Shown: piece by piece, positions 45,283-53,969 of the stretch
How the letters are laid out: each line of letters opens with the position of its first letter
Position numbering within the stretch: the stretch's first letter is position 1
Assembly (NCBI GenBank): GCA_050253075.1
Contig: JBFWJS010000008.1
Location: forward strand, 24,874-88,873
From: Deferribacterales bacterium
Lineage (GTDB): Bacteria > Chrysiogenota > Deferribacteres > Deferribacterales > Geovibrionaceae
DNA length: 64,000 nt
Direction: 5' to 3'
The notes under the pieces: generated by a model
What the model saw: only the letters and a program-made list of their open reading frames with translations
Databases searched by the model: none
Told to the model about the DNA's origin: nothing
Translations under genes and position numbers: made by a program

Positions 45283-46491
45283 TCACGAGATTTTATTCAT
45301 CTGGTCTATAAATTTGTATATATCATCCGGTATAAATACTGACTCCGGATTCACAGGCGCAACTATTTTATGAGCATTTACAACGGATTTTGAAAGATCT
45401 ATCGCTTTGATAGGCAGTCTGTCCCCACGCTTGTTCATAAAAACGAGAACAATCGGCTCCGTCGGTTTGTTTAAATTTGTTTTCCCCACCACTGCCAGCT
45501 CATGCGAACTCATCAGCACAAGAGACCCAACGGGGTATATACCGATATTCTTTATGAAGAACTCAAAGACCTTCTTATTTATATGCGAGTCTGCCCACTT
45601 AAACATGAGCTTCAGAGCCGAAGGGGGCTCCATACCTTTGTGGTATACTCTGTCGCTGGTGATAGCGTCATAGATGTCTACCACTGCTCCTATCTTCCCC
45701 TCTATGCTGATATCTTCGTCTTTCAGATTATTCGGGTAGCCCGAGCCGTCATATCTTTCGTGGTGTTCGTATGCAAGGCGCAGCATCTCATCAGGAATAT
45801 TCTGCTTCTTTAGGAAGTCATATCCGTACTGTACATGGTTACGCATTATCACGAATTCCTCTTCGGTCAGCTTCCCCGGCTTATTTAAAACCTCAGTAGG
45901 CACGAGCATCTTACCGGCATCATGGATAAGCCCTGCATTTGCGATAGATTCAATTTCTCTCTGGCTCATCCCGAGGTGTGCTGCCAGACTCGCTGCATAG
46001 ATGCTCACGTTCATGGAGTGCTGGAATGTATAGTCGTCATAGTGGCGCAGCTTTGTGACGCTGCAGAGGACACTTTTATTCTTTCTGGTGAGTTCTGCTA
46101 TATTTGATGCTACATGCTTTACGGCTTCACTGTTAAACATCTTTCCGCCGCGGATGTCTTCCATCACATTTCTGACTATTTTTACAGATTCGGTGTAGAT
46201 ATCGCTGACTTTATCAAGCTCTCCGAGGTCTACCATGTTTTCGGCAGACTCTTCTGCGGCTTCTTCGACAGCGTCGGGTTCGGGTGCGAGGATGATTTTA
46301 GAGGCTTTCTTCTCCTCTACACTCACTTCCTCTATGTATACATATCTGATATCATTGGATTTTATCTTATCGATAGTTGCTTGATTCTTAACTACGAACT
46401 TGTGTTTAAGAAAATCAGTATCCAGCCAGCTACAGTCGAATTTTAAGACCTTATCGCCGATCTTTAGGTCGTTGATGTCTATTTTTTTCAT
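45283..46491 (-). CDS. HD-GYP domain c-di-GMP phosphodiesterase with DUF3391-like N-terminus
   Basis: HDAGK, HHERYDGSGYP and an N-terminal KIGDKVLKFDCSWLDTDFLKHKF. Confidence 0.88.
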   Translation of the reverse strand: MKKIDINDLKIGDKVLKFDCSWLDTDFLKHKFVVKNQATIDKIKSNDIRYVYIEEVSVEEKKASKIILAPEPDAVEEAAEESAENMVDLGELDKVSDIYTESVKIVRNVMEDIRGGKMFNSEAVKHVASNIAELTRKNKSVLCSVTKLRHYDDYTFQHSMNVSIYAASLAAHLGMSQREIESIANAGLIHDAGKMLVPTEVLNKPGKLTEEEFVIMRNHVQYGYDFLKKQNIPDEMLRLAYEHHERYDGSGYPNNLKDEDISIEGKIGAVVDIYDAITSDRVYHKGMEPPSALKLMFKWADSHINKKVFEFFIKNIGIYPVGSLVLMSSHELAVVGKTNLNKPTEPIVLVFMNKRGDRLPIKAIDLSKSVVNAHKIVAPVNPESVFIPDDIYKFIDQMNKIS

Positions 46492-46573: not shown

Positions 46574-47248
46574 TCAAATTTGTGTGAGCACTTCCTCGAA
46601 TTGTGTTCTTATAAACTGCCAACCGTTGTAAACGTGTGTCTCTACTATCTTTTCCACTCTGTCGGTATCTTTCTTTTCAAAGGCATTTATGAGGCTTTCG
46701 TGCTCTTCGTTCACCTTTTTGGTACGTCCCTCTGTGGTGAAAGAGTAGACTGTGGCTCTTTTGAACTGCTGCTGCAGTCCTTCGAGCATTCTGATGAGTC
46801 TGTCGTTATGGCATTTATATATAAAAATGTTATGGAAGTCGTAGTTCCAGTTGATGAGCTGTGTCACACCCTTTGCAGAGCCTGCTTCCATCTTTACGGC
46901 GAGCTCGCGCATTTTATCAAGGTCTGCCTTTTCGATATGATCGACAGCGAGCCTTGACGCAAGGGGTTCGAGCTTCATCTTTATGACAAAGATGTCGTCG
47001 ATATCTTTTCTGGTGAGGGTGGTTACCACCGCACCCCTTCTGGGGATGATGTCTATGAAGCCCTCCATCTCAAGAAGCCTGAGAGCCTCTCTGATAGGGG
47101 TTCTGGATATACCGAGCATCTCAGAGAGCTTTGGTTCAACAAGTCTCTCGCCCGGCTTTATTATACCTTTTATGATATTATTACGAATTGTCTGGGCTAT
47201 CTTCTCACTAAGCGGCGTATTGTCTATGTTTATATCTCTGCCAGCCAT
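46574..47248 (-). CDS. GntR family transcriptional regulator (FCD effector domain), paralog 2
   Basis: wHTH LVEPKLSEMLGISRTPIREALRLLEMEGFI plus a helical FCD-type C-terminus. Confidence 0.88.
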   Translation of the reverse strand: MAGRDINIDNTPLSEKIAQTIRNNIIKGIIKPGERLVEPKLSEMLGISRTPIREALRLLEMEGFIDIIPRRGAVVTTLTRKDIDDIFVIKMKLEPLASRLAVDHIEKADLDKMRELAVKMEAGSAKGVTQLINWNYDFHNIFIYKCHNDRLIRMLEGLQQQFKRATVYSFTTEGRTKKVNEEHESLINAFEKKDTDRVEKIVETHVYNGWQFIRTQFEEVLTQI

Positions 47249-47260
47249 TTTAAATCACCT

Positions 47261-47929
47261 CTAGTGGCTTTTGATCCTTTCTTTCAGATATTCCCATCCG
47301 CTGATGATATGGTCTCTGACGGATGTTTCAGCCAGGTCCGGATCTTTAGATACGAATGCATCTATGATCTTTTTATGTTCTTTTACGGCAGTAGCTGCCC
47401 TTCCCGCATCAGAAACCAGCATGGTCTTCAAACGCTGGAAATTTTTTGAAAGTCCATCCAGAATGTCCACAAGCTTATCATTGTCGGAAGCGGCAATGAA
47501 TATATTGTGAAAGTCGATGTTATCTTTCAGGTACTCGTCTGTTACACTCGGATTCTTTTCGACTATGTTTTTAAACTGTTTATTAATGTTTATAAGGCTT
47601 TCTATCTGTTCTTCGGTAAGGTTTATCACTGCCTGTCTGGCGGCGAGCCCTTCCAGGTTAGCCTTTATGGCGTACAGGTCGTCGATATCTTTGATGGTCA
47701 GCTCTTTGACAATTGCGCCCCTTCTGGGCACTATTTCTATGAAGCCTTCTGCCTCGAGCTGCCTGAGAGCTTCCCGTATCGGGGTGCGTGATATACCCAG
47801 TGTTTTAGCCAGCTTAGGCTCTACGAGTCTTTCGCCGTTTTTATAAACACCTTTGATTATATCCGCTCTTATTTTATCCGCTATCTTTTCACGCAGCGGT
47901 TTGCTTTCGATAAATACTTCCTGACTCAC
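47261..47929 (-). CDS. GntR family transcriptional regulator (FCD effector domain), paralog 1
   Basis: wHTH LVEPKLAKTLGISRTPIREALRQLEAEGFI. About two-thirds identical to its neighbour over the N-terminal 90 aa by eye. Confidence 0.88.
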   Translation of the reverse strand: MSQEVFIESKPLREKIADKIRADIIKGVYKNGERLVEPKLAKTLGISRTPIREALRQLEAEGFIEIVPRRGAIVKELTIKDIDDLYAIKANLEGLAARQAVINLTEEQIESLININKQFKNIVEKNPSVTDEYLKDNIDFHNIFIAASDNDKLVDILDGLSKNFQRLKTMLVSDAGRAATAVKEHKKIIDAFVSKDPDLAETSVRDHIISGWEYLKERIKSH

Positions 47930-47997: not shown

Positions 47998-48097
47998 TAA
48001 TGCGAAAAATATAGCTGTTTTTTATCTTTGAGTCAATCTCTATTCTGGTACTTTTTCACAGAATAAAATGTCTTTATGAAATAAGTGAAGTAAAAGT

Positions 48098-48441
48098 GAA
48101 AGAAGGTCTGTAAGCCGGATCCTGTGTAAATCGGTCATTTATCTAGCCATGTGATTGCTCACATGGTCAAGCTGCCTACCCGCAGATCATAAAGAACGGG
48201 CCGTTCTGCGAGATCTGCCTATTTGGCATTGCACCGGATGGGGTTTGCCGTGCCTGTGCCGTCACCGGCATCAGCGGGGGTCTCTTACACCTCCGTTTCA
48301 CCCTTACCATATAAATGGCGGTCTGTTTTCTGTGGCACTGTCCCCGGCTCGCACCGGGCTGATGTTATCAGCCATCCTGCCCTGCGGTGTCCGGACTTTC
48401 CTCCCGTGCTTAAAGCACCGGCGACCGAAAGACCTTCTTTC
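48098..48441 (-). ncRNA. rnpB: RNase P RNA, bacterial type A
   Basis: The reverse complement contains GGAGGAAAGTCCGG, ACAGAAAACAGACCGCC, GGTAAGGGTGAAACGG, GCCAAATAGG, CTAGATAAATGA and ACAGGATCCGGCTTACAG. A 12-bp P1 forms between GAAAGAAGGTCT and AGACCTTCTTTC. Confidence 0.9.
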
Positions 48442-48523: not shown

Positions 48524-48892
48524 TTGACTATGAACCCTATAGACATAGTCGAACACGACCTGCTGGAGATGAAGGCTAACACCCTTTACAAATACGGCAA
48601 AAAGCTGGAGATAGCTGAAGACATGTATCACCAGAAGCTGAAACTGCTGGACAGACTTCAGAAGATACTCCTGCGTCTGGAAAGTGAAACAGTCATAAAA
48701 CACGGGTGGAAAAAGAAAAAACGTCAGGCTGAGCTGACCGAAAGAGTCCGTTCAAAGATAATAAAAACTGACAAAACAGTCAGAAAACTGGAAGAGCTGA
48801 AAAACAAATATATGGAAGAGTTCAAATATCAGCGTGAAGCATGCGGCATGCTCGACCATTCATTCATAGACGAATTCTACAAAGAAAACTAA
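48524..48892 (+). CDS. hypothetical coiled-coil protein
   Basis: 122 aa, Lys/Glu-rich helical sequence. No family recognised. Confidence 0.45.
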   Translation: MTMNPIDIVEHDLLEMKANTLYKYGKKLEIAEDMYHQKLKLLDRLQKILLRLESETVIKHGWKKKKRQAELTERVRSKIIKTDKTVRKLEELKNKYMEEFKYQREACGMLDHSFIDEFYKEN

Positions 48893-48965: not shown

Positions 48966-49178
48966 ATGGAAATAAGTATGATACCCCCCGTCGGGCCTTT
49001 CAAAGTGAACCGCTCGGAAGTTAACGAGCCAGAAAGGAAAAAATACTTTCATATCAAAGGGAAAATAGAGTCTGTCAAAAAAGACGACGGAAAATATGTG
49101 ATAACTGTCACTTCGGAAGAGCCGTCTTTCAAAGTGGAAGGCATCGCCGGTGAAAAAGTTCTCCTGTCAAATCTTTAG
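48966..49178 (+). CDS. hypothetical small protein
   Basis: 70 aa with strong RBS aaggagg 5 nt upstream. No family recognised. Confidence 0.5.
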   Translation: MEISMIPPVGPFKVNRSEVNEPERKKYFHIKGKIESVKKDDGKYVITVTSEEPSFKVEGIAGEKVLLSNL

Positions 49179-49198: not shown

Positions 49199-50008
49199 CT
49201 ATCTGACTATCGTGTATGCAGATGTTGCCTCTGTCCATGTGTCCGGTTCCAGCTTGTTCAGTCTGCGTATCAGGTCGCTTATCATATTTGTCGACCTTGC
49301 ATCATACACAAGAAACAGCCCCTCCTGAAACCCCAGCGGTAAAAGGTCTTCACGCTCTTTCGTAGCTATTATCTTAACACTTTCCTTCGCACTTTTACCT
49401 TTGAAATCAGGGAGAAAACGGGCGAAAAGAGTTATCTCGCTCCCATTCTGTGGATAGGTATACACCTTGCCTTTTTCTGTATAGTTGTTCCTGTCTATGC
49501 TGTTGGGGAAAATAAGCGTGACCGAACCGTCCGCACCAATTGAAAATATATAGACGTAAGCATTGTCGCTGGTCTTATAACTGACGGATATCTTATCATT
49601 CTCCCTCAGCTCTTCCTTATCCAGCACAAGATCAACGGATAACCTTCCGCTCACATCAGGCATATATGGCTCTATCAGCGCTTTTATACGCACTCTGTAG
49701 AGTCTTTTATCCTCTGTGTCGAATCCCTCTGCCAGCACCTCGCTCTTTACCACATGCCCCCTGACGCCTGCATATACAAGGTCGTCTGCGAGCTGTCCGT
49801 TCGACACCATAGACATAGACTTTATAAACACGCCTACGGCATCTTCCACGGCATTCCTAAGGGCGTCATTCTTTGCTCTGGAGACAGTCTCTTTATAAGT
49901 GTCGGCATCACCCATGATTGATGCACCTTCGGCCTCTACCCAAATATTCTCCGCAGAGTAAACAGTTCCGAAACATAACAGCAGAGCAAAGATTAAAATG
50001 ATGCGCAT
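49199..50008 (-). CDS. Secreted LPP20/FlgO-like + DUF4384 protein
   Basis: Signal peptide (VYS/AEN), an LPP20-like block (KETVSRAKNDALRNAVEDAVGVFIKS), and DUF4384-like YVYIFSIGADGSVTLIFPN. ATGA overlap with the upstream gene. Confidence 0.7.
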   Translation of the reverse strand: MRIILIFALLLCFGTVYSAENIWVEAEGASIMGDADTYKETVSRAKNDALRNAVEDAVGVFIKSMSMVSNGQLADDLVYAGVRGHVVKSEVLAEGFDTEDKRLYRVRIKALIEPYMPDVSGRLSVDLVLDKEELRENDKISVSYKTSDNAYVYIFSIGADGSVTLIFPNSIDRNNYTEKGKVYTYPQNGSEITLFARFLPDFKGKSAKESVKIIATKEREDLLPLGFQEGLFLVYDARSTNMISDLIRRLNKLEPDTWTEATSAYTIVR

Positions 50009-51999
50009 CAGTACAGCTCCCCGAAAGTCTTGCTGTCTATCTTTCCGTTTAAAAATGAGTCCATCAGCTTCGAATTCGTTTTATTCTTAACCTCATCCAG
50101 AGCCTTGCTAAGCTGGGCGGCATTGATATCGCCATTCTCAAAGGCTGCTTTGAGCTTTGATTTCGCTGATTCTTCCGAAAGCTCTTTAGACATCTTCCAG
50201 TTTCTGCTGACAACAAAGTCCCCCTTTCCTATCAGCTGAGGCGTCTGAGGCTCCCCTTTTAGCCTTGAGGATGCCTTAGGCACGTTCGTCATAACATAAT
50301 CTGCGAGGTCCTTCACGCTTATCCATGCGCTCTGCCCTGCATTCATTATACCGTCTATCAGGTAATGGCTGAAAATGCCTGATTTAAACTCATTATCGTC
50401 CTCCCATGACTGCTGATCGGCAGCAGAGGATGTCAGTATCAGCTTGCCCGCTCCTGTGGTTTTTATGATGTCATTTGCCACCATCATGCCCACGATGGGC
50501 TTTCCGCCTTTAGGAGTGACAGACTTACCCGTACCGGTAAAACATGCATCGAGAGCAACCAGAACCCCCTTCGCATTCGAATTATCCAGAGCATTCTGAA
50601 TATAGCTTATGCTTACGGCTGTATCCTTCATCGCCTCGGGGTCTGATATGACAGCGTCGTAAGGGATGATAACGCCCCCCGTAACGGAGTCGCCTGTGGT
50701 GATGGGTGCGCCGTGACCGGAGAAATATACATATACATATCCGTCCCATGTGCGAATCTTCCGCAGGGCAGAGATGATATTATTCCTTGTCGCCTTGTCG
50801 TTCAGAAGGAGCACAGAATTTTCAGGGTTTATACCGCCGTATCTCTTGTCCGTTATAACTTCATAAACTTTCTTTGCGTCTACAGAGGCATATTTTAACC
50901 CGGGTATGTCTTTCCTGCCTGCATAGTCGATGCCTATCACAACGGCGAAAGCATCGGAGCGGTACTCAGGCAGTTCTTCAGAGCCTGAATGCGGGGCGAG
51001 TATCGGAGTATATGAATCCACAGCCTTAGTTGACTGCGCAACGGGCTCTTTTGAAACCAGATGCACCACCTGAAATATGTCCGAACCTGATCTGTTTATC
51101 TTGAGTATAATGTCTGTGTCTGGGTTACGGCTGGATATTATATCCGCCATAGATTTTGCGCCGGTCACCTTTTCCCCGCTGACCTCCAGCAGAATGTCCC
51201 CTACTCTCACGCCTGATTTGAAAGCAGGTGAGCCCTGCTCGACACCAGTAACGCTTGCGCCCAATATCCTCATGCGCCTGTTGTTCTTCATACTGACGGC
51301 GTCATAGTCGGATATATGCACACCCAGCCATGCCTTCGGAGATGTATCGGCAGGGGCTTGCCGTGTATCTGTCTTTGCGACAGCCTGCGGAGCGCTTTTA
51401 ACCTTTGCGGCATACTGCTTCAGAGGATATGCCATAGACATCTCTTCTGTTATCTGTTTATAGCAGGCGGCGAAACACTGAGACAGAGCTTCCGCCTTTA
51501 GCTGTTCGTGGGGGATAACAGGAGAGACCACAGACCTGCTGGTGCTTCTGGCATTTGCAGAGGTTTCCCATATCACCTGATTGTTCCTGTTCCTTACTGA
51601 TGCTTTCAGGGTCAGGTTTGCCTCAAATTTCATCCCAAAGCCCAATGCGACCATTATGCCGTTGAAACTGAGGCTCTGCACATCCACTTCGACCACGGCG
51701 TCTGCTTCTTCGCTGGCGGTATTTTTCCTGATAAATATCGGGTTAGTGAAGGTATATATCATATACTTTCTGTTCATACTGCTTATCAGCTTGCCTGTAT
51801 AAACAGACGTGGTGGTATTGCCTATGGTGTTATTGCGCAGTTCATTATCGTCAGGCATTATCACCGCCGTCTTCATATCTATGGACTGCACATTCGGTCT
51901 GTCCACAGGGGGCTGTATAAAAGGCAGGGTGTAGTGGAATGTACCGCAGCCTGTGACCGCCAGAATTATAAATATTAGTAGTATGTTATATCTTCTCAT
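50008..51999 (-). CDS. Lipoprotein-anchored PDZ + caspase-like (peptidase C14) protease
   Basis: Lipobox AVTGC; PDZ GSPAFKSGVRVGDILLEVSGEKV; catalytic His in YFSGHGAP (codon 50713-50715); catalytic Cys in LDACFTG (codon 50542-50544). Start set at ATG 51999 (gaggg RBS) rather than TTG 52011. Confidence 0.85.
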   Translation of the reverse strand: MRRYNILLIFIILAVTGCGTFHYTLPFIQPPVDRPNVQSIDMKTAVIMPDDNELRNNTIGNTTTSVYTGKLISSMNRKYMIYTFTNPIFIRKNTASEEADAVVEVDVQSLSFNGIMVALGFGMKFEANLTLKASVRNRNNQVIWETSANARSTSRSVVSPVIPHEQLKAEALSQCFAACYKQITEEMSMAYPLKQYAAKVKSAPQAVAKTDTRQAPADTSPKAWLGVHISDYDAVSMKNNRRMRILGASVTGVEQGSPAFKSGVRVGDILLEVSGEKVTGAKSMADIISSRNPDTDIILKINRSGSDIFQVVHLVSKEPVAQSTKAVDSYTPILAPHSGSEELPEYRSDAFAVVIGIDYAGRKDIPGLKYASVDAKKVYEVITDKRYGGINPENSVLLLNDKATRNNIISALRKIRTWDGYVYVYFSGHGAPITTGDSVTGGVIIPYDAVISDPEAMKDTAVSISYIQNALDNSNAKGVLVALDACFTGTGKSVTPKGGKPIVGMMVANDIIKTTGAGKLILTSSAADQQSWEDDNEFKSGIFSHYLIDGIMNAGQSAWISVKDLADYVMTNVPKASSRLKGEPQTPQLIGKGDFVVSRNWKMSKELSEESAKSKLKAAFENGDINAAQLSKALDEVKNKTNSKLMDSFLNGKIDSKTFGELY

Positions 52000-52007
52000 A
52001 TCTGCCC

Positions 52008-52841
52008 TCAATATAGGTCGCTGAAAGTTTTTGAATCTATAGAGCCGTTTATAAATGACTGTAATATCTTTGACGGATTGCCTGAGTTAAGGTCTTCGAT
52101 AGCTTTGGAGAGCTGGTCTGATGAGATATCTCCATTTTCGAAAGCATATCTCAGCTTTTCCTTATCAGACATTCCGGACAAATCTTTTTCAGTTGTATTC
52201 TGTTTTACAGGAGGGTTATTTTTGATTATTACACCGCTTGATCCGGAAAGATATTCAACAACGGCATACGAATGCATGATGTTATCAAGCGCCTTTTTCA
52301 TAGCACTTCTGAAAGCATTATAGGTCTGCTCGCCCCATGCCTGCCCTGCGGAGGCACCGGAGAATGCGTTATACTTCCGCCCCTGTGCATCTGCAAATGC
52401 CGTGGTGGTATACAGCTCGCTCCCCTTTTCAGTTTGCATCCGCACCCTTAAGGACAGCTCCGCTTTATACACTCCTTCCGAAAAACCGATGGCGACCGTC
52501 GGTCTGTAATCCACCAGATCAGCAGAGATAACCACGCCGTCTTTAACATCACCTGCACTGCCGACAAAATCTGTTTTTTCGAAATAATTCGGCAATACAT
52601 CCTTAGCGGCGCCGTTTATTATCTGCCCGGAGGGGACTATATACAGCACCGTTATGCCCGACTGTTCGTTTTCAGTTTTTGTGTATTTCTCAGATTCATC
52701 TTTTAAGAGGAAAGACGCCTTTGCAGGGACTTTTGCGGAATATACCACATTGTCTTCCACAGGCGTAAAGGGGATGACAGATCTTACCGTGCATCCATAA
52801 AAAGAAAATAGTGTGACTAATATAAGGATTACAGTTTTCAT
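52008..52841 (-). CDS. Lipoprotein paralogous to the N- and C-terminal parts of the caspase protein (no protease domain)
   Basis: Lipobox SFYGC. VVISADLVDYRPTVAIGFSEGVYKAELSLRVRM aligns with VVEVDVQSLSFNGIMVALGFGMKFEANLTLKASV. A C-terminal module is shared. Start at ATG 52841. Confidence 0.7.
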   Translation of the reverse strand: MKTVILILVTLFSFYGCTVRSVIPFTPVEDNVVYSAKVPAKASFLLKDESEKYTKTENEQSGITVLYIVPSGQIINGAAKDVLPNYFEKTDFVGSAGDVKDGVVISADLVDYRPTVAIGFSEGVYKAELSLRVRMQTEKGSELYTTTAFADAQGRKYNAFSGASAGQAWGEQTYNAFRSAMKKALDNIMHSYAVVEYLSGSSGVIIKNNPPVKQNTTEKDLSGMSDKEKLRYAFENGDISSDQLSKAIEDLNSGNPSKILQSFINGSIDSKTFSDLY

Positions 52842-52870
52842 ATCGAGCACCGTTTGTATATATATAGGTA

Positions 52871-52878
52871 ATTATACA
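52871..52878 (-). promoter_or_regulatory. Extended -10 element (TGTATAAT) for the caspase operon
   Basis: The reverse complement of 52871-52878 is tgtataat, 30 nt upstream of ATG 52841. Confidence 0.4.
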
Positions 52879-53216
52879 CCTTAATTATATACAACGGCAC
52901 GCAAAAACTATGTCAGAAGTGACATAAAGTAAATTTTGGTCACATCGAAAAAAGGCACCTTCTTAAGACATTAAAACATATGGGTTTCCATTAAAGGAAA
53001 GCCGGCTTCCTTGCCGGCACCCCGTTGAGCTCCGTCTCAGTCGGCGCGGTTTTTCCGCTACCATAGAAAGCTATATATCAACTTGCGTGCCAAAATGTGC
53101 ACACTTGCCACACACACGCATATCTATCTGGTAATTCAATATAATTATAAACATGTATTAATTATGCAGACGTATATTACCCCATTTCTCATACAAAATG
53201 GGAAATTATTATCATT

Positions 53217-53315: not shown

Positions 53316-53969
53316 ATGAAGAAACTATTTGCACCGGGATGTGCAATGCTCATCTATAAACCCGAACTGGCAGAGAAGATAAACAATACCCTCGGCGACA
53401 AATATCATACGGAGGGGCTGTACGACACATGCTGTCACCACCGCCCCGAAACAGATGAACCGCTGGAGATAGTAAACACCTGCCCCGGATGCGACAGAAG
53501 ATACTCTTCATTATATAAAGGAGTGAGCACTATATCCCTGTGGGAAATACTGGCATCGGACGAGACATTCCCCCTGCCTGATTATAAAGGCGCAGTGATG
53601 TCCGTACACGACGCATGCCCCACCAGAAAGAATACGAAAGTACATGACGCCATCCGCACGCTGGCGGAAAGGATGAACATTATAATAAAAGAACCCGCAA
53701 GGACACGCACAAATGCCGTCTGCTGCGGTGATACATTTTACGGAAAGCTCCCCGCAGAAGAAGTTACCGCAAAGATGAAAGAGCGGGCGGACGAGATGCC
53801 CTGTGAGGATGTGATAGTATATTGTGTCTCCTGCGTGCACGCCATGCAGAAAGGCGGTAAAAAGGCGCACTATATGCCTGATCTACTCTTTGGCGAACAG
53901 ACATCCGTAAAGCCCGAAACCACGGAAGAGTGGCACGGTAAAATAGAAGCATTTATAGAAACACATTAG
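53316..53969 (+). CDS. Cysteine-rich (CCG-domain-like) Fe-S binding protein
   Basis: 217 aa with clusters APGCAM, CCHH, CPGC, HDACPTRK, VCCGD and YCVSCVH, resembling HdrB/GlpC-type CCG repeats. Confidence 0.6.
   Translation: MKKLFAPGCAMLIYKPELAEKINNTLGDKYHTEGLYDTCCHHRPETDEPLEIVNTCPGCDRRYSSLYKGVSTISLWEILASDETFPLPDYKGAVMSVHDACPTRKNTKVHDAIRTLAERMNIIIKEPARTRTNAVCCGDTFYGKLPAEEVTAKMKERADEMPCEDVIVYCVSCVHAMQKGGKKAHYMPDLLFGEQTSVKPETTEEWHGKIEAFIETH

What the first reader, a model, noticed from the sequence alone, without database searches (positions are those of the whole stretch)
49199..52841. Three-gene envelope operon: lipoprotein-anchored PDZ-caspase protease, a protease-less paralog, and an LPP20/DUF4384 partner
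Three minus-strand genes are tightly packed. There is an 8-nt gap with a gaggg RBS, then an ATGA overlap. They sit behind an extended -10 (tgtataat) and a 470-bp intergenic region. All three products carry export signals, two with lipoboxes (SFYGC, AVTGC) and one with a type-I signal peptide.

The central protein combines three parts. The first is a ~180-aa N-terminal domain of unknown family. The second is a PDZ domain. The third is a C14 caspase-like domain with the His (SGHG) and Cys (DACFTG) dyad intact.

The first gene encodes the same N-terminal domain and the same C-terminal module but no PDZ or protease. It looks like a scaffold, decoy or regulator paralog. The third gene joins an LPP20/FlgO-like domain to DUF4384, a domain that often accompanies bacterial caspase homologs.

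I know of no characterised system with this composition. Periplasmic, PDZ-gated caspase-like proteolysis (envelope-stress sensing, programmed lysis or an anti-phage suicide response) is a plausible but untested reading.
Basis: partly seen in the sequence, partly recalled or inferred. Interest (0 to 1): 0.8.

Follow-up and report, generated by a model that had tools for sequence, protein, structure and literature searches.

The report
Outer-membrane-tethered periplasmic caspase-like protease operon
Three tightly packed genes encode exported proteins: a lipoprotein-anchored caspase-like protease with a PDZ domain, a protease-less copy of it, and a highly conserved DUF4384 partner. Together they form a real, conserved and still uncharacterised envelope protease module found in several anaerobic bacterial phyla.

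Summary
Three minus-strand genes sit head to tail: A (52008-52841), B (50008-51999) and C (49199-50008). A and B are 8 nt apart. B and C overlap by 1 nt (TGATG, not ATGA).

- **B** is a lipoprotein with four parts: an LptE/CsgG-like anchor domain, an HtrA-type PDZ, a C14 caspase/metacaspase domain (His429, Cys486, Asp484) and a C-terminal helical module.
- **A** has the same anchor domain (visible only by profile comparison and structure) and the same C-terminal module (56% identity), but no PDZ or protease.
- **C** has a type-I signal peptide, a FlgT_N/FlgP-like domain and DUF4384.

The A-B-C cassette recurs in three other Deferribacterales species and one 97%-identical strain, with different flanks. 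Reduced forms occur in Desulfobacterota and Nitrospirota: caspase+C, caspase+A-like, or C inside caspase islands. Close C orthologues adjoin a C14 gene in 6 of 7 species-representative genome loci.

No characterised orthologue turned up in the searchable literature, PADLOC, plasmids or viral contigs.

My best model is regulated periplasmic proteolysis by an outer-membrane-tethered A/B assembly, with C as dedicated substrate or regulator. The anatomy is shown; the mechanism is inferred. I classify it as a new variant of a known kind (bacterial C14 proteases), of moderately high interest.

The parts
52008..52841 (-). Gene A: 277-aa lipoprotein and protease-less paralogue of B. Layout: signal + lipobox (Cys17), LptE/CsgG-like anchor domain (aa 18-198), disordered linker (202-218), four-helix C-terminal module (226-277) ending in FSDLY-COOH.
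   Evidence: ORF. No Pfam, NCBIfam or PADLOC hit. AlphaFold pLDDT 85.7. Foldseek hits LptE, CsgG, DUF330, GNA1162 and an HpaA homologue at E 5e-5 to 4e-3. hhalign against the B N-domain gives 98.2%. About 10 A-like clusters at 50% identity among 1.84e9 representative proteins.
52248..52790 (-). A anchor domain (aa 18-198), LptE/CsgG-like alpha/beta fold
52011..52166 (-). A C-terminal module (aa 226-277): two helix-turn-helix repeats of the form F-x-N-G-x-I, with a terminal LY-COOH
   Evidence: 56% identical to B aa 605-663, E 3e-17. Predicted as four helices. The tail F-G-[EAD]-L-Y ends 112 of the ~122 proteins that carry the C-module. SHOCT matches are weak only.
50008..51999 (-). Gene B: 663-aa lipoprotein (Cys18) made of anchor domain, PDZ, C14 caspase-like protease and C-terminal module
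51394..51942 (-). B anchor domain (aa 20-202), homologous to the A N-domain
   Evidence: hhalign E 5e-14 against A, E 1.3e-56 against the ~560-aa lipoprotein-caspases. Weak Pfam LptE match, E 0.015. pLDDT above 90.
51055..51336 (-). B PDZ domain (aa 222-315), HtrA/DegS/RseP type, with carboxylate-binding loop WLGV
   Evidence: Pfam PDZ_2 6.8e-9 and PDZ_6 1.9e-8. Best PDB sequence hits are DegP-like PDZ domains at 6e-9. The [WY]LG[VI] loop is conserved in orthologues.
50200..50967 (-). B C14 caspase/metacaspase-like domain (aa 345-600). His429 codon at 50715..50713, Asp484 at 50550..50548, Cys486 at 50544..50542.
   Evidence: Pfam Peptidase_C14 3.8e-14. Foldseek metacaspase 2.5e-10, MALT1 TM 0.72. 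Yca1 profile hit with SGHG aligned. Residue conservation.
50011..50187 (-). B C-terminal module (aa 605-663), ending in FGELY-COOH
49199..50008 (-). Gene C: 269-aa periplasmic protein. Layout: type-I signal peptide (aa 1-19), FlgT_N/FlgP-like domain (20-113), short linker carrying a basic residue (R122), DUF4384 (134-218) with a conserved C-terminal extension.
   Evidence: Pfam DUF4384 3.5e-18, FlgT_N 0.035. At family level, FlgT_N matches 44 of 83 members and PDB lipoprotein chains are hit at 0.002-0.016. At least 376 homologue clusters, 50-60% identical across phyla. The linker carries K/R in 97% of homologues.
52842..53018 (-). Conserved 5' region of the operon with promoter-like elements (TGTATAAT at 52878..52871, TGTATATAAT at 52893..52884). 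It is bounded upstream by a GC hairpin + T-run at 53018..53001.
   Evidence: Sequence. Hairpin. In the 97.3%-identical contig L028, homology ends exactly at 53018.

Best explanation
This is an accessory envelope protease module built from three exported proteins.

B is tethered by its lipid anchor and an LptE/CsgG-like lipoprotein domain, most likely to the inner face of the outer membrane. It carries a catalytically competent metacaspase-type cysteine protease (His429/Cys486). Asp484, two residues before the Cys, matches the D-x-C pattern of Arg/Lys-specific metacaspases and paracaspases. An HtrA-type PDZ domain with an intact carboxylate-binding loop sits between anchor and protease.

A is a non-catalytic paralogue that keeps only the anchor domain and the C-terminal helical module. 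It most likely co-assembles with B through these shared modules, as a scaffold or stoichiometry-setting regulator.

C is a soluble periplasmic FlgT_N/FlgP-like + DUF4384 protein. It is the most conserved component and the near-constant neighbour of this caspase clade. It is most likely the protease's dedicated substrate or docking/regulatory subunit.

Working model: the protease is kept in check until the PDZ binds a free C-terminal peptide. That peptide could be the invariant ...FG(E/D)LY-COOH tail of A or B, in cis or trans, or exposed C-termini of envelope proteins. B then cleaves after basic residues. One candidate site is the conserved Lys/Arg in the linker between the two domains of C, which would separate the ring-forming-type N-domain from DUF4384.

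Shown here: gene organisation, export signals, folds, catalytic residues, paralogy, and conservation of the neighbourhood.

Inferred: outer-membrane location, A-B-C assembly, PDZ gating, P1 specificity, and C as substrate.
For: - Coupled genes.
- Lipoboxes and signal peptide, read from the sequence; 0 of 120 C homologues have a lipobox.
- C14 fold and dyad.
- The PDZ is closest to DegP/DegS/RseP PDZs, and its [WY]LG[VI] loop is conserved.
- The A/B anchor domains are homologous and LptE/CsgG/GNA1162-like by fold.
- The shared C-module is 56% identical, and its terminal F-G-x-L-Y-COOH is nearly invariant (112 of ~122).
- A-B-C is conserved in Seleniivibrio woodruffii, Deferribacteraceae UBA6793, a Deferribacterales MAG and a 97% strain, while the flanks differ.
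- An A-like gene also follows an anchor-caspase-C-module gene in an unrelated contig, in reversed order.
- Close C orthologues adjoin C14 genes in 6 of 7 species-representative genome loci (L007-L013), and also in L006, L028, L030/L031 and L032.
- The C linker has K/R in 97% of homologues.
- In type III-E CRISPR systems, one group of the protease substrate Csx30 carries DUF4384 as its C-terminal domain, downstream of the linker where the authors suggest Csx29 cleaves (bioRxiv 10.1101/2022.08.17.504292).
Against: - No interaction, activity or localisation was measured.
- I had no multimer prediction and no model coordinates to inspect.
- Most family members with the same FGELY tail lack a PDZ, so the tail cannot exist only as a ligand for B's own PDZ.
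- Many caspases of this clade have no C nearby (L004, L005, L025, L027), and one C orthologue is an orphan (L010). C is therefore not obligatory in cis.
- The window's C has Val at the consensus Lys position of the linker, with Arg three residues later.
- The +2 sorting rule for lipoproteins comes from E. coli and may not apply here.
Confidence: 0.5

Rival explanations
1. Envelope-located conflict, abortive-infection or programmed-death system. The caspase is a latent executioner that, on sensing phage or envelope damage, destroys envelope proteins or releases a toxic fragment of C. A acts as a decoy or inhibitor.
For: - Caspase-like proteases are recurrent executioners in bacterial conflict systems (eLife 2020, PMC7159879; Craspase).
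- The distribution is patchy and multi-phylum. Only 3 Deferribacterales species representatives were hit in the genome scan, which is a lower bound because the scan uses degenerate peptide patterns.
- In Nitrospirota, C and these caspases sit in islands with TPR-CHAT, WD40-caspase, transglutaminase and toxin-antitoxin genes.
- In a 97% strain the operon abuts a giant helicase/methylase/ART 'polyvalent' gene typical of mobile elements.
- The caspase family has a constant core with hypervariable N-terminal modules (TPR, ankyrin, PDZ, S41).
Against: - PADLOC gives only a generic caspase hit and nothing for A or C.
- The NCBIfam EACC1-type caspase model scores 75 bits, below its 140 cutoff, and no EACC1 gene is present.
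- No pore-forming or nuclease effector is present.
- All parts are periplasmic.
- C is unusually conserved (50-60% identity across phyla, uniform ~270 aa), which is unlike arms-race components.
- No copies were found in viral contigs. Plasmids hold only remote caspase-domain hits at 24-34% identity.
Confidence: 0.2
2. Housekeeping-type envelope quality control or processing, working like DegP/DegS or the lipoprotein-adaptor proteases Prc-NlpI and CtpA-LbcA. The PDZ captures C-termini of misfolded or specific envelope proteins, and the tethered cysteine protease degrades or matures them. C and A are adaptors.
For: - The PDZ is most similar to DegP/DegS/RseP PDZs.
- The protease has a lipoprotein tether.
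- One family member fuses Peptidase_S41 + PDZ to the same caspase domain (P0071). Many others carry TPR + PDZ, reminiscent of NlpI/LbcA-type TPR adaptors (that resemblance is from my own knowledge).
- C is under strong purifying selection.
Against: - The module is absent from most genomes, including most Deferribacterota species representatives in the pattern scan, so it is not a core function.
- There is no conserved link to envelope-biogenesis genes. Flanks differ between genera.
- Nitrospirota loci carry multiple paralogous caspases, which suggests diversification rather than one housekeeping role.
Confidence: 0.15
3. Mainly structural: a periplasmic ring or scaffold beneath the outer membrane, built from FlgP/FlgT-like and LptE/CsgG-like domains and associated with a motor, pilus or secretion machine. 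The caspase acts only as an assembly or maturation protease.
For: - The C N-domain matches FlgT_N and PDB 'lipoprotein' chains present in 52-116 copies per entry. I suspect these are flagellar-disc FlgP proteins, from memory and not verified here.
- The anchor domain resembles ring- or plug-forming CsgG and LptE.
- In Seleniivibrio and UBA6793, T2SS/MSH-type E and F genes lie upstream.
Against: - No flagellar, pilus or secretion neighbours are conserved across loci. The window has none.
- Similarities are at fold or clan level only, with TM 0.45-0.6.
- This reading does not explain why the catalytic dyad is so strictly conserved across the family.
Confidence: 0.1

Closest known systems
Bacterial C14 caspase homologues (orthocaspases/metacaspases, e.g. 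cyanobacterial orthocaspases; fold relatives yeast Yca1 and MALT1 paracaspase)
   Same: Caspase-hemoglobinase fold, SGHG His and D-A-C Cys motifs, Asp at Cys-2 as in Arg/Lys-specific relatives, and Pfam Peptidase_C14 above threshold.
   Different: B is exported and lipid-anchored. It is fused to an LptE-like anchor, a PDZ and a previously unmodelled C-terminal module, and it is paired with a protease-less paralogue and a DUF4384 partner. In the searchable literature, characterised orthocaspases are cytoplasmic or of undetermined location.
HtrA-family PDZ proteases (DegS/DegP) and lipoprotein-adaptor proteases (Prc-NlpI, CtpA-LbcA)
   Same: Periplasmic protease with an HtrA-type PDZ that probably reads C-terminal peptides, tethered to the outer membrane through a lipoprotein.
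   Different: The catalytic domain is a cysteine C14 protease, not a trypsin-like or S41 serine protease. The protease itself is the lipoprotein. There is no TPR adaptor in this locus.
Type III-E CRISPR Craspase: Csx29 (TPR-CHAT protease) with substrate Csx30
   Same: A caspase-clan protease is paired with a two-domain partner whose C-terminal domain can be DUF4384, downstream of a flexible linker where cleavage by Csx29 is suggested. C has the same N-domain / linker / DUF4384 layout.
   Different: Here there is no CRISPR, RNA guide, Csx31 or RpoE. This system is periplasmic, and the C N-domain (FlgT_N-like) is unrelated to the Csx30 N-terminal domain.
EACC1-caspase two-gene membrane conflict system (Kaur, Burroughs, Iyer & Aravind 2020)
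   Same: The best NCBIfam hit for the caspase domain is caspase_w_EACC1 (E 5e-21). Both show a constant caspase with variable fused modules and a membrane association.
   Different: The score is below the family cutoff (75 against 140). No single-TM EACC1 gene lies upstream. The partners are lipoprotein and periplasmic proteins instead.
LptE / CsgG / GNA1162 (DUF799) / DUF330 outer-membrane lipoprotein folds, and FlgP/FlgT_N/LPP20 periplasmic ring proteins
   Same: The A/B anchor domain matches the former by fold. The C N-domain matches the latter by profile. GNA1162-like + TPR proteins neighbour caspases of this clade in Nitrospirota.
   Different: There is no significant sequence membership: LptE scores 16 bits against a cutoff of 23, and FlgT_N scores 15 bits against 28.8 for the window protein. 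No LptD, curli or flagellar genes are nearby.

Membership tests
Peptidase C14 (caspase/metacaspase/orthocaspase) | Sequence match to the family model above the curated threshold | tested here: met
   Pfam PF00656 at 53.4 bits against a cutoff of 21.4, aa 351-588
Peptidase C14 (caspase/metacaspase/orthocaspase) | Caspase-hemoglobinase fold | tested here: met
   AlphaFold pLDDT 87.6. Foldseek metacaspase 7qp0 at E 2.5e-10; MALT1 3v4o at TM 0.72.
Peptidase C14 (caspase/metacaspase/orthocaspase) | Catalytic His-Cys dyad in the canonical motifs | tested here: met
   The His429 motif SGHG aligns to YSGHG of Yca1. Cys486 sits in LDACFTG. Both residues are at least 90% conserved in 118 homologues. The Cys was not covered by the HMMER local alignment; its assignment rests on the D-x-C-x-[ST]-G motif and on conservation.
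Peptidase C14 (caspase/metacaspase/orthocaspase) | Proteolytic activity and P1 specificity (Arg/Lys for metacaspase-type enzymes) | not testable with these tools
   Only inferred, from the invariant Asp484 at Cys-2 compared with the D-x-C pattern of metacaspases and MALT1 (my own knowledge).
HtrA/DegS-type PDZ serine proteases | PDZ domain with a carboxylate-binding loop | tested here: met
   PDZ_2 at 6.8e-9. WLGV loop conserved.
HtrA/DegS-type PDZ serine proteases | Trypsin-like serine protease domain | tested here: not met
   NCBIfam DegP/DegS matches cover only the PDZ region, aa 220-322, and fall far below cutoffs. The catalytic domain is C14.
EACC1-caspase conflict system | Caspase scoring above the caspase_w_EACC1 cutoff | tested here: not met
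   75.1 bits against a cutoff of 140
EACC1-caspase conflict system | An upstream gene for a single-TM EACC1 protein | tested here: not met
   The upstream gene is lipoprotein A (anchor domain + C-module), with no EACC1 model hit.
Known anti-phage defence systems (PADLOC 2.0), including gasdermin-protease pairs | Component proteins matching system models | tested here: not met
   Only a generic 'caspase' model hits B (1.1e-11). A and C have no hit.
DUF4384 (PF14326) | Sequence match above the curated threshold | tested here: met
   65.9 bits against a cutoff of 27, aa 134-218 of C. All 83 homologues tested match.
FlgT_N / LPP20 / FlgP-like lipoprotein domain (N-domain of C) | Sequence match above the curated threshold | tested here: inconclusive
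   The window protein scores 15.1 bits against a cutoff of 28.8 (E 0.035). At family level, 44 of 83 members match (best E 2e-6), and the profile hits PDB lipoprotein chains 9hmf_C (0.002) and 9yec (0.016). C itself is not a lipoprotein.
LptE (PF04390) | Sequence match above threshold, and a partner LptD | tested here: not met
   16.4 bits against a cutoff of 23 for B, and nothing for A. There is fold similarity only, TM 0.45-0.6. No LptD-like gene was seen among the neighbouring ORFs.
SHOCT (PF09851) / DUF1707 for the C-terminal module | Significant match to the family model | tested here: not met
   Only 2 (SHOCT) and 3 (DUF1707) of 19 diverse modules match, with best E 0.015-0.06.

The most novel reading that the evidence does not exclude
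This is a periplasmic counterpart of caspase-substrate switches such as Craspase-Csx30 or caspase-gasdermin. An outer-membrane-tethered A/B hetero-oligomer is held inactive by its own invariant ...FGELY-COOH tails sitting in the PDZ. Competing C-termini, exposed during envelope damage or phage attack, displace the tails. The protease then cuts the conserved basic linker of C and frees a FlgP-like domain that polymerises or remodels the envelope. DUF4384 would then be a general caspase-docking domain shared with Csx30.
Probability: 0.15. Interest if true: 0.85.

Novelty: new variant of a known kind. Interest (0 to 1): 0.6.

Why it matters
Bacterial caspase homologues are abundant in Nitrospirota, Deferribacterota and Deltaproteobacteria (PMC3501461). 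Almost none has a known substrate, partner or location.

This locus offers a compact, testable three-gene form of a large clade of exported C14 proteases. It has a near-constant partner (the DUF4384 protein C), a natural protease-less paralogue (A), and two unmodelled domains: an LptE-like anchor and a tandem helical module with an invariant LY-COOH end.

The link between DUF4384 and caspase-clan proteases now appears in two unrelated settings, Csx30 of type III-E CRISPR and this periplasmic system. That suggests a general protease-docking or substrate role for a domain of unknown function.

Cultured hosts exist. Seleniivibrio woodruffii carries the A-B-C cassette, and Thermodesulfovibrio yellowstonii carries C plus caspases. 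Biochemistry is therefore feasible.

Tried and rejected
- **Single-sequence PDB searches.** Searches with A and with the caspase domain found nothing useful. Profile and structure searches were needed.
- **BLASTP of A against B.** It showed no N-terminal similarity.
- **SHOCT for the C-module.** Only weak, non-significant hits, so I did not adopt it. The PDB profile search of the module gave only noise.
- **EACC1-caspase and PADLOC defence systems.** Below cutoff or no system hit.
- **Relation between the C N-domain and the A/B anchor domain.** hhalign probability below 1%; rejected at sequence level.
- **Metagenome scan for A-like genes.** A 5-sequence alignment gave only two uninformative loci. 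A-like context came instead from one contig look-up.
- **Mobile carriage.** No relatives of C in IMG/VR viral contigs. PLSDB plasmids hold only remote caspase-domain hits at 24-34% identity.
- **Riboswitch or sRNA in the 474-bp upstream region.** Rfam gave only an RsmY-like match at E 0.69. Folding z-score was -2.8. Not established.
- **C-module co-evolution.** An ungapped last-50-aa identity matrix was confounded by a 1-residue indel, so I did not use it.
- **Organism.** Not determined directly. The Deferribacterales affinity rests on the best full-length homologues of A, B and C.

Full report
**1. What is in the sequence**

Three ORFs lie head to tail on the minus strand.
- A: 52008..52841, 277 aa from the ATG.
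- B: 50008..51999, 663 aa from the ATG.
- C: 49199..50008, 269 aa.

A and B are separated by 8 nt (TGA GGGCAGAT ATG), with GAGGG overlapping the stop codon. The B stop and C start share one base (TGATG).

Upstream of A there are 474 non-coding bases before a divergent ORF at 53316. A TGTATAAT lies at 52878..52871. The generic promoter scan did not pick it up, and promoter-like sites in the region are no more frequent than in shuffled sequence. The promoter is therefore plausible but not demonstrated.

Export signals are visible in the sequence.
- A has ...SFYGC (Cys17). Its orthologues have canonical ISAC, VSAC or AAAC boxes.
- B has ...AVTGC (Cys18).
- C has a hydrophobic signal ending VYSA|EN. 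None of 120 C homologues has a lipobox.
- No SignalP or LipoP tool was available.

**2. The protease B**

Pfam finds Peptidase_C14 (aa 351-588, E 3.8e-14, 53 bits against a cutoff of 21) and PDZ (aa 223-307; PDZ_2 E 6.8e-9).

An AlphaFold model built on 118 homologues is confident (mean pLDDT 87.6). It divides the protein as follows:
- anchor domain, aa 20-202
- disordered linker, aa 206-219
- PDZ, aa 222-315
- disordered linker, aa 320-338
- caspase domain, aa 345-600
- a long helix, aa 601-621
- a small helical module, aa 627-662

Foldseek places the catalytic domain with metacaspases (7qp0, E 2.5e-10) and the MALT1 paracaspase domain (3v4o, TM 0.72 normalised to the target). A family profile hits yeast metacaspase Yca1 (4f6o, E 1.6e-6) and aligns SGHG with YSGHG.

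His429 and Cys486 are at least 90% conserved. Ser427, Gly428, Gly430 and Asp484 are invariant. Asp at Cys-2 (LDACFTG) is the D-x-C pattern of Arg/Lys-specific metacaspases and paracaspases, whereas Asp-specific caspases have QACxG. That comparison is from my own knowledge, so the inferred specificity is an inference, not a result.

The PDZ is closest to DegP/DegS/RseP PDZs. Its carboxylate-binding loop [WY]-L-G-[VI] is conserved in orthologues.

**3. The paralogue A and the two unmodelled modules**

A has no hit in Pfam, NCBIfam or PADLOC. BLASTP against B finds only the last 59 residues (56% identity, E 3e-17).

Profile-profile comparison shows the N-terminal domains are also homologous.
- A orthologues against B orthologues: 98.2% probability, E 5e-14, about 20% identity over 190 columns.
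- Both match the N-terminal domain of a large set of ~560-aa lipoprotein-caspases: 99.8% for A, 100% for B.

The AlphaFold model of A (pLDDT 85.7) has an alpha/beta domain (aa 18-198), a disordered linker (aa 202-218) and four short helices (aa 226-276).

Foldseek relates the alpha/beta domain to several outer-membrane-lipoprotein folds (E 5e-5 to 4e-3, TM 0.45-0.6):
- LptE
- CsgG
- DUF330/XCC0632
- an H. pylori HpaA homologue
- Cj1090c
- GNA1162

Rad52 also appears at similar E-values, but with RMSD 16-17 Å, so I disregard it. This agrees with a sub-threshold Pfam LptE hit in B (E 0.015). It is a fold-level resemblance, not family membership.

The C-terminal module is an internal duplication of a helix-turn-helix unit (K-L-x-x-A-F-E-N-G-x-I-S...QL and K-I-L-x-S-F-x-N-G-x-I-D...F). 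It resembles SHOCT only weakly, with 2-3 of 19 members matching at E 0.015-0.06.

Its very end, F-G-[E/A/D]-L-Y followed by the stop codon, is nearly invariant: 112 of the ~122 proteins that carry the module.

**4. The partner C**

DUF4384 is clear (aa 134-218, E 3.5e-18).

The N-terminal domain scores only E 0.035 against FlgT_N in the window protein. However, 44 of 83 homologues match FlgT_N (best E 2e-6). The family profile also hits PDB 'lipoprotein' chains: 9hmf_C (E 0.002), 9yec (52 chains per entry, E 0.016) and 9yfg (116 chains, E 0.075). I suspect these are FlgP-type flagellar disc proteins, but that is from memory and not verified here.

C is strikingly conserved. At least 376 clusters were found, nearly all ~270 aa long and 50-60% identical to the window protein. 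They span Deferribacterales, Nitrospirota (including Thermodesulfovibrio yellowstonii), Thermodesulfobacteriota/Deltaproteobacteria and Nitrospinae. Mean column identity is 58%.

The short linker between its two domains carries Lys/Arg in 97% of homologues (consensus P-E-K-G). The window protein has Arg122.

**5. Conservation of the neighbourhood**

- The full A-B-C cassette, with the same tight spacing, occurs in Seleniivibrio woodruffii, Deferribacteraceae UBA6793 and a Deferribacterales MAG. It also occurs in a contig 97.3% identical to the window.
- In Seleniivibrio and UBA6793 the flanks are T2SS E/F-like genes on one side and DsbD/Ccm genes on the other.
- In the window the flanks are the RNase P RNA gene, GntR regulators, an Ada-like regulator and an EamA transporter. 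The three genes therefore travel as a unit.
- Outside this order there are reduced forms:
  - anchor-caspase-C-module + C, without A or PDZ (L006; L011, a Deltaproteobacteria MAG)
  - anchor-caspase-C-module followed by an A-like gene, in reversed order and without C (L027)
  - C next to other C14 genes (L012 Desulfobacterales, L013, L032)
  - C inside large Thermodesulfovibrio-type islands with TPR-CHAT, TPR-PDZ, caspase, GNA1162-like+NosD+TPR, WD40-caspase and transglutaminase genes
- Some clade members have no C nearby (L004, L005, L025), and one C orthologue is an orphan (L010).
- Of the seven species-representative genome loci with a close C orthologue, six have a C14 gene within about 3 kb.
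- A-like proteins (anchor + C-module, 268-307 aa) form about ten clusters at 50% identity in 1.84 billion representatives. The family is rare but real.
- Among 140 proteins examined, the commonest architecture is lipobox-anchor-caspase-C-module. Other members replace the anchor with TPR, ankyrin, PDZ or S41+PDZ modules.

**6. How it most likely works**

Shown: three coupled genes for exported proteins; a catalytically intact metacaspase-type domain on a lipoprotein; an HtrA-type PDZ with an intact binding loop; a paralogue that retains exactly the two non-catalytic end modules; and a very conserved DUF4384 partner that tracks this caspase clade.

Inferred:
- A and B co-assemble through the shared anchor and/or C-module. 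This is the simplest reason to retain precisely those parts, and A-like genes pair with such caspases in two lineages with opposite gene order.
- The assembly hangs from the outer membrane. Neither lipoprotein has Asp at +2, and all fold relatives are outer-membrane lipoproteins.
- The PDZ gates or targets the protease by binding free C-termini. The invariant ...LY-COOH tails of A and B are obvious candidate ligands. However, most tail-bearing relatives lack a PDZ, so the tail must also have another role.
- C is the dedicated substrate or regulator. In type III-E CRISPR systems, the substrate Csx30 of the caspase-clan protease Csx29 has, in one subgroup, a DUF4384 C-terminal domain. That domain lies downstream of a flexible linker where the authors suggest Csx29 cleaves, and they note that DUF4384 is often fused to proteases (bioRxiv 10.1101/2022.08.17.504292). 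C has the same domain / linker / DUF4384 layout, with a conserved basic residue in the linker.

I put about 0.5 on this overall model. The anatomy alone is far more certain than that. The individual gating and substrate steps are each about 0.3.

**7. Rivals**

- *Defence or programmed-death reading (0.2).* It is favoured by the patchy multi-phylum spread, the hypervariable N-terminal modules of the caspase family, the Nitrospirota islands with toxin-antitoxin, CHAT and WD40 genes, and a mobile-element-like giant gene abutting the operon in a near-identical strain. It is disfavoured by the extreme conservation of C, the lack of any PADLOC system match, the lack of an effector, and the absence from viral contigs and plasmids.
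- *DegP/Prc-like quality-control role (0.15).* It fits the PDZ type and the S41+PDZ+caspase fusion, but not the sparse distribution.
- *Mainly structural ring or scaffold role (0.1).* It rests only on fold-level similarities.

**8. Comparison with the known, and novelty**

B is a bona fide member of peptidase family C14. It is not an HtrA protease, because it has no serine-protease domain. It is not an EACC1-caspase system (75 bits against a cutoff of 140, and no EACC1 gene). It matches no PADLOC-listed defence system.

The anchor domain is LptE/CsgG-like by fold only. The C-module has no family. Full-text searches found nothing that characterises this architecture or DUF4384. The terms covered DUF4384, orthocaspase + lipoprotein/periplasm, caspase + PDZ + lipoprotein, bacterial metacaspase + periplasmic, caspase + LPP20, and GNA1162. 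The library lacks most subscription-journal papers, so absence is not proof.

I classify the finding as a new variant of a known kind. It is an exported, lipid-anchored, PDZ-bearing C14 protease with a pseudo-paralogue and a dedicated DUF4384 partner. It is the compact form of a much larger uncharacterised clade.

**9. Limits**

I had no multimer prediction, no model coordinates, no signal-peptide predictor and no structure for C. The genome scan used degenerate peptide patterns and gives lower bounds only. The source organism is inferred as Deferribacterales-like only from the best homologues.

Noticed in passing
window 53001-53018 (minus strand) and L028 5824-5841: A GC-rich hairpin followed by a T-run (GCCGGCAAGGAAGCCGGC TTTCCTTT) marks the exact point where a 97.3%-identical contig stops matching the window. 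Upstream of it that strain carries a 4594-aa helicase/Eco57I-methylase/ART 'polyvalent' gene typical of mobile elements. The window instead has ~300 bp of non-coding DNA and a Cys-rich 217-aa ORF. This may be an integration junction or a strain-variable island boundary right next to the operon.
   Followed up: partly
window 52990-53130 (minus strand): The non-coding stretch ending in that hairpin folds somewhat better than shuffles (z -2.8). It has only an RsmY-like Rfam match at E 0.69. It could be a small RNA or an orphan terminator; this is not established.
   Followed up: partly
window 48095-48440 (minus strand): Bacterial class A RNase P RNA gene (305 bits, full length), about 750 bp downstream of the operon. 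Two small convergent ORFs without Pfam hits lie in between (48524-48892 and 48966-49178, plus strand).
   Followed up: yes
window 46574-47929 (minus strand): Two tandem paralogous GntR/FCD-family regulators (224 and 222 aa), followed by an HD_5 + DUF3391 (HD-GYP-like) protein at 45283-46491.
   Followed up: partly
L030/L031 (Thermodesulfovibrio-type contigs), whole loci: The C orthologue sits in a ~17-kb same-strand island. The island holds TPR-CHAT, TPR proteins, TPR-PDZ, a 324-aa caspase, GNA1162-like+NosD+TPR, DUF4282, a second DUF4384 protein, WD40-caspase and a transglutaminase-core protein. A similar GNA1162-like+TPR / caspase / transglutaminase trio occurs in L005. This looks like a larger uncharacterised exported-caspase gene island.
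   Followed up: partly
proteins P0001-P0140 (family of B and A): The last five residues F-G-[E/A/D]-L-Y, directly before the stop codon, are nearly invariant in every protein carrying the C-terminal module, whatever the N-terminal architecture. This suggests a functional free C-terminus, for example a PDZ ligand or recognition tag.
   Followed up: partly
L026 6980-7896 (JDSF01000003.1): Only fragments of an anchor-domain ORF and of a C-like ORF lie close together. This may be a decayed copy of the module or an assembly problem.
   Followed up: no
P0071 (808 aa, NCBI metagenome protein): One family member fuses Peptidase_S41 (tail-specific protease) + PDZ to the same caspase domain and C-module, putting two unrelated protease types in one exported protein.
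   Followed up: no
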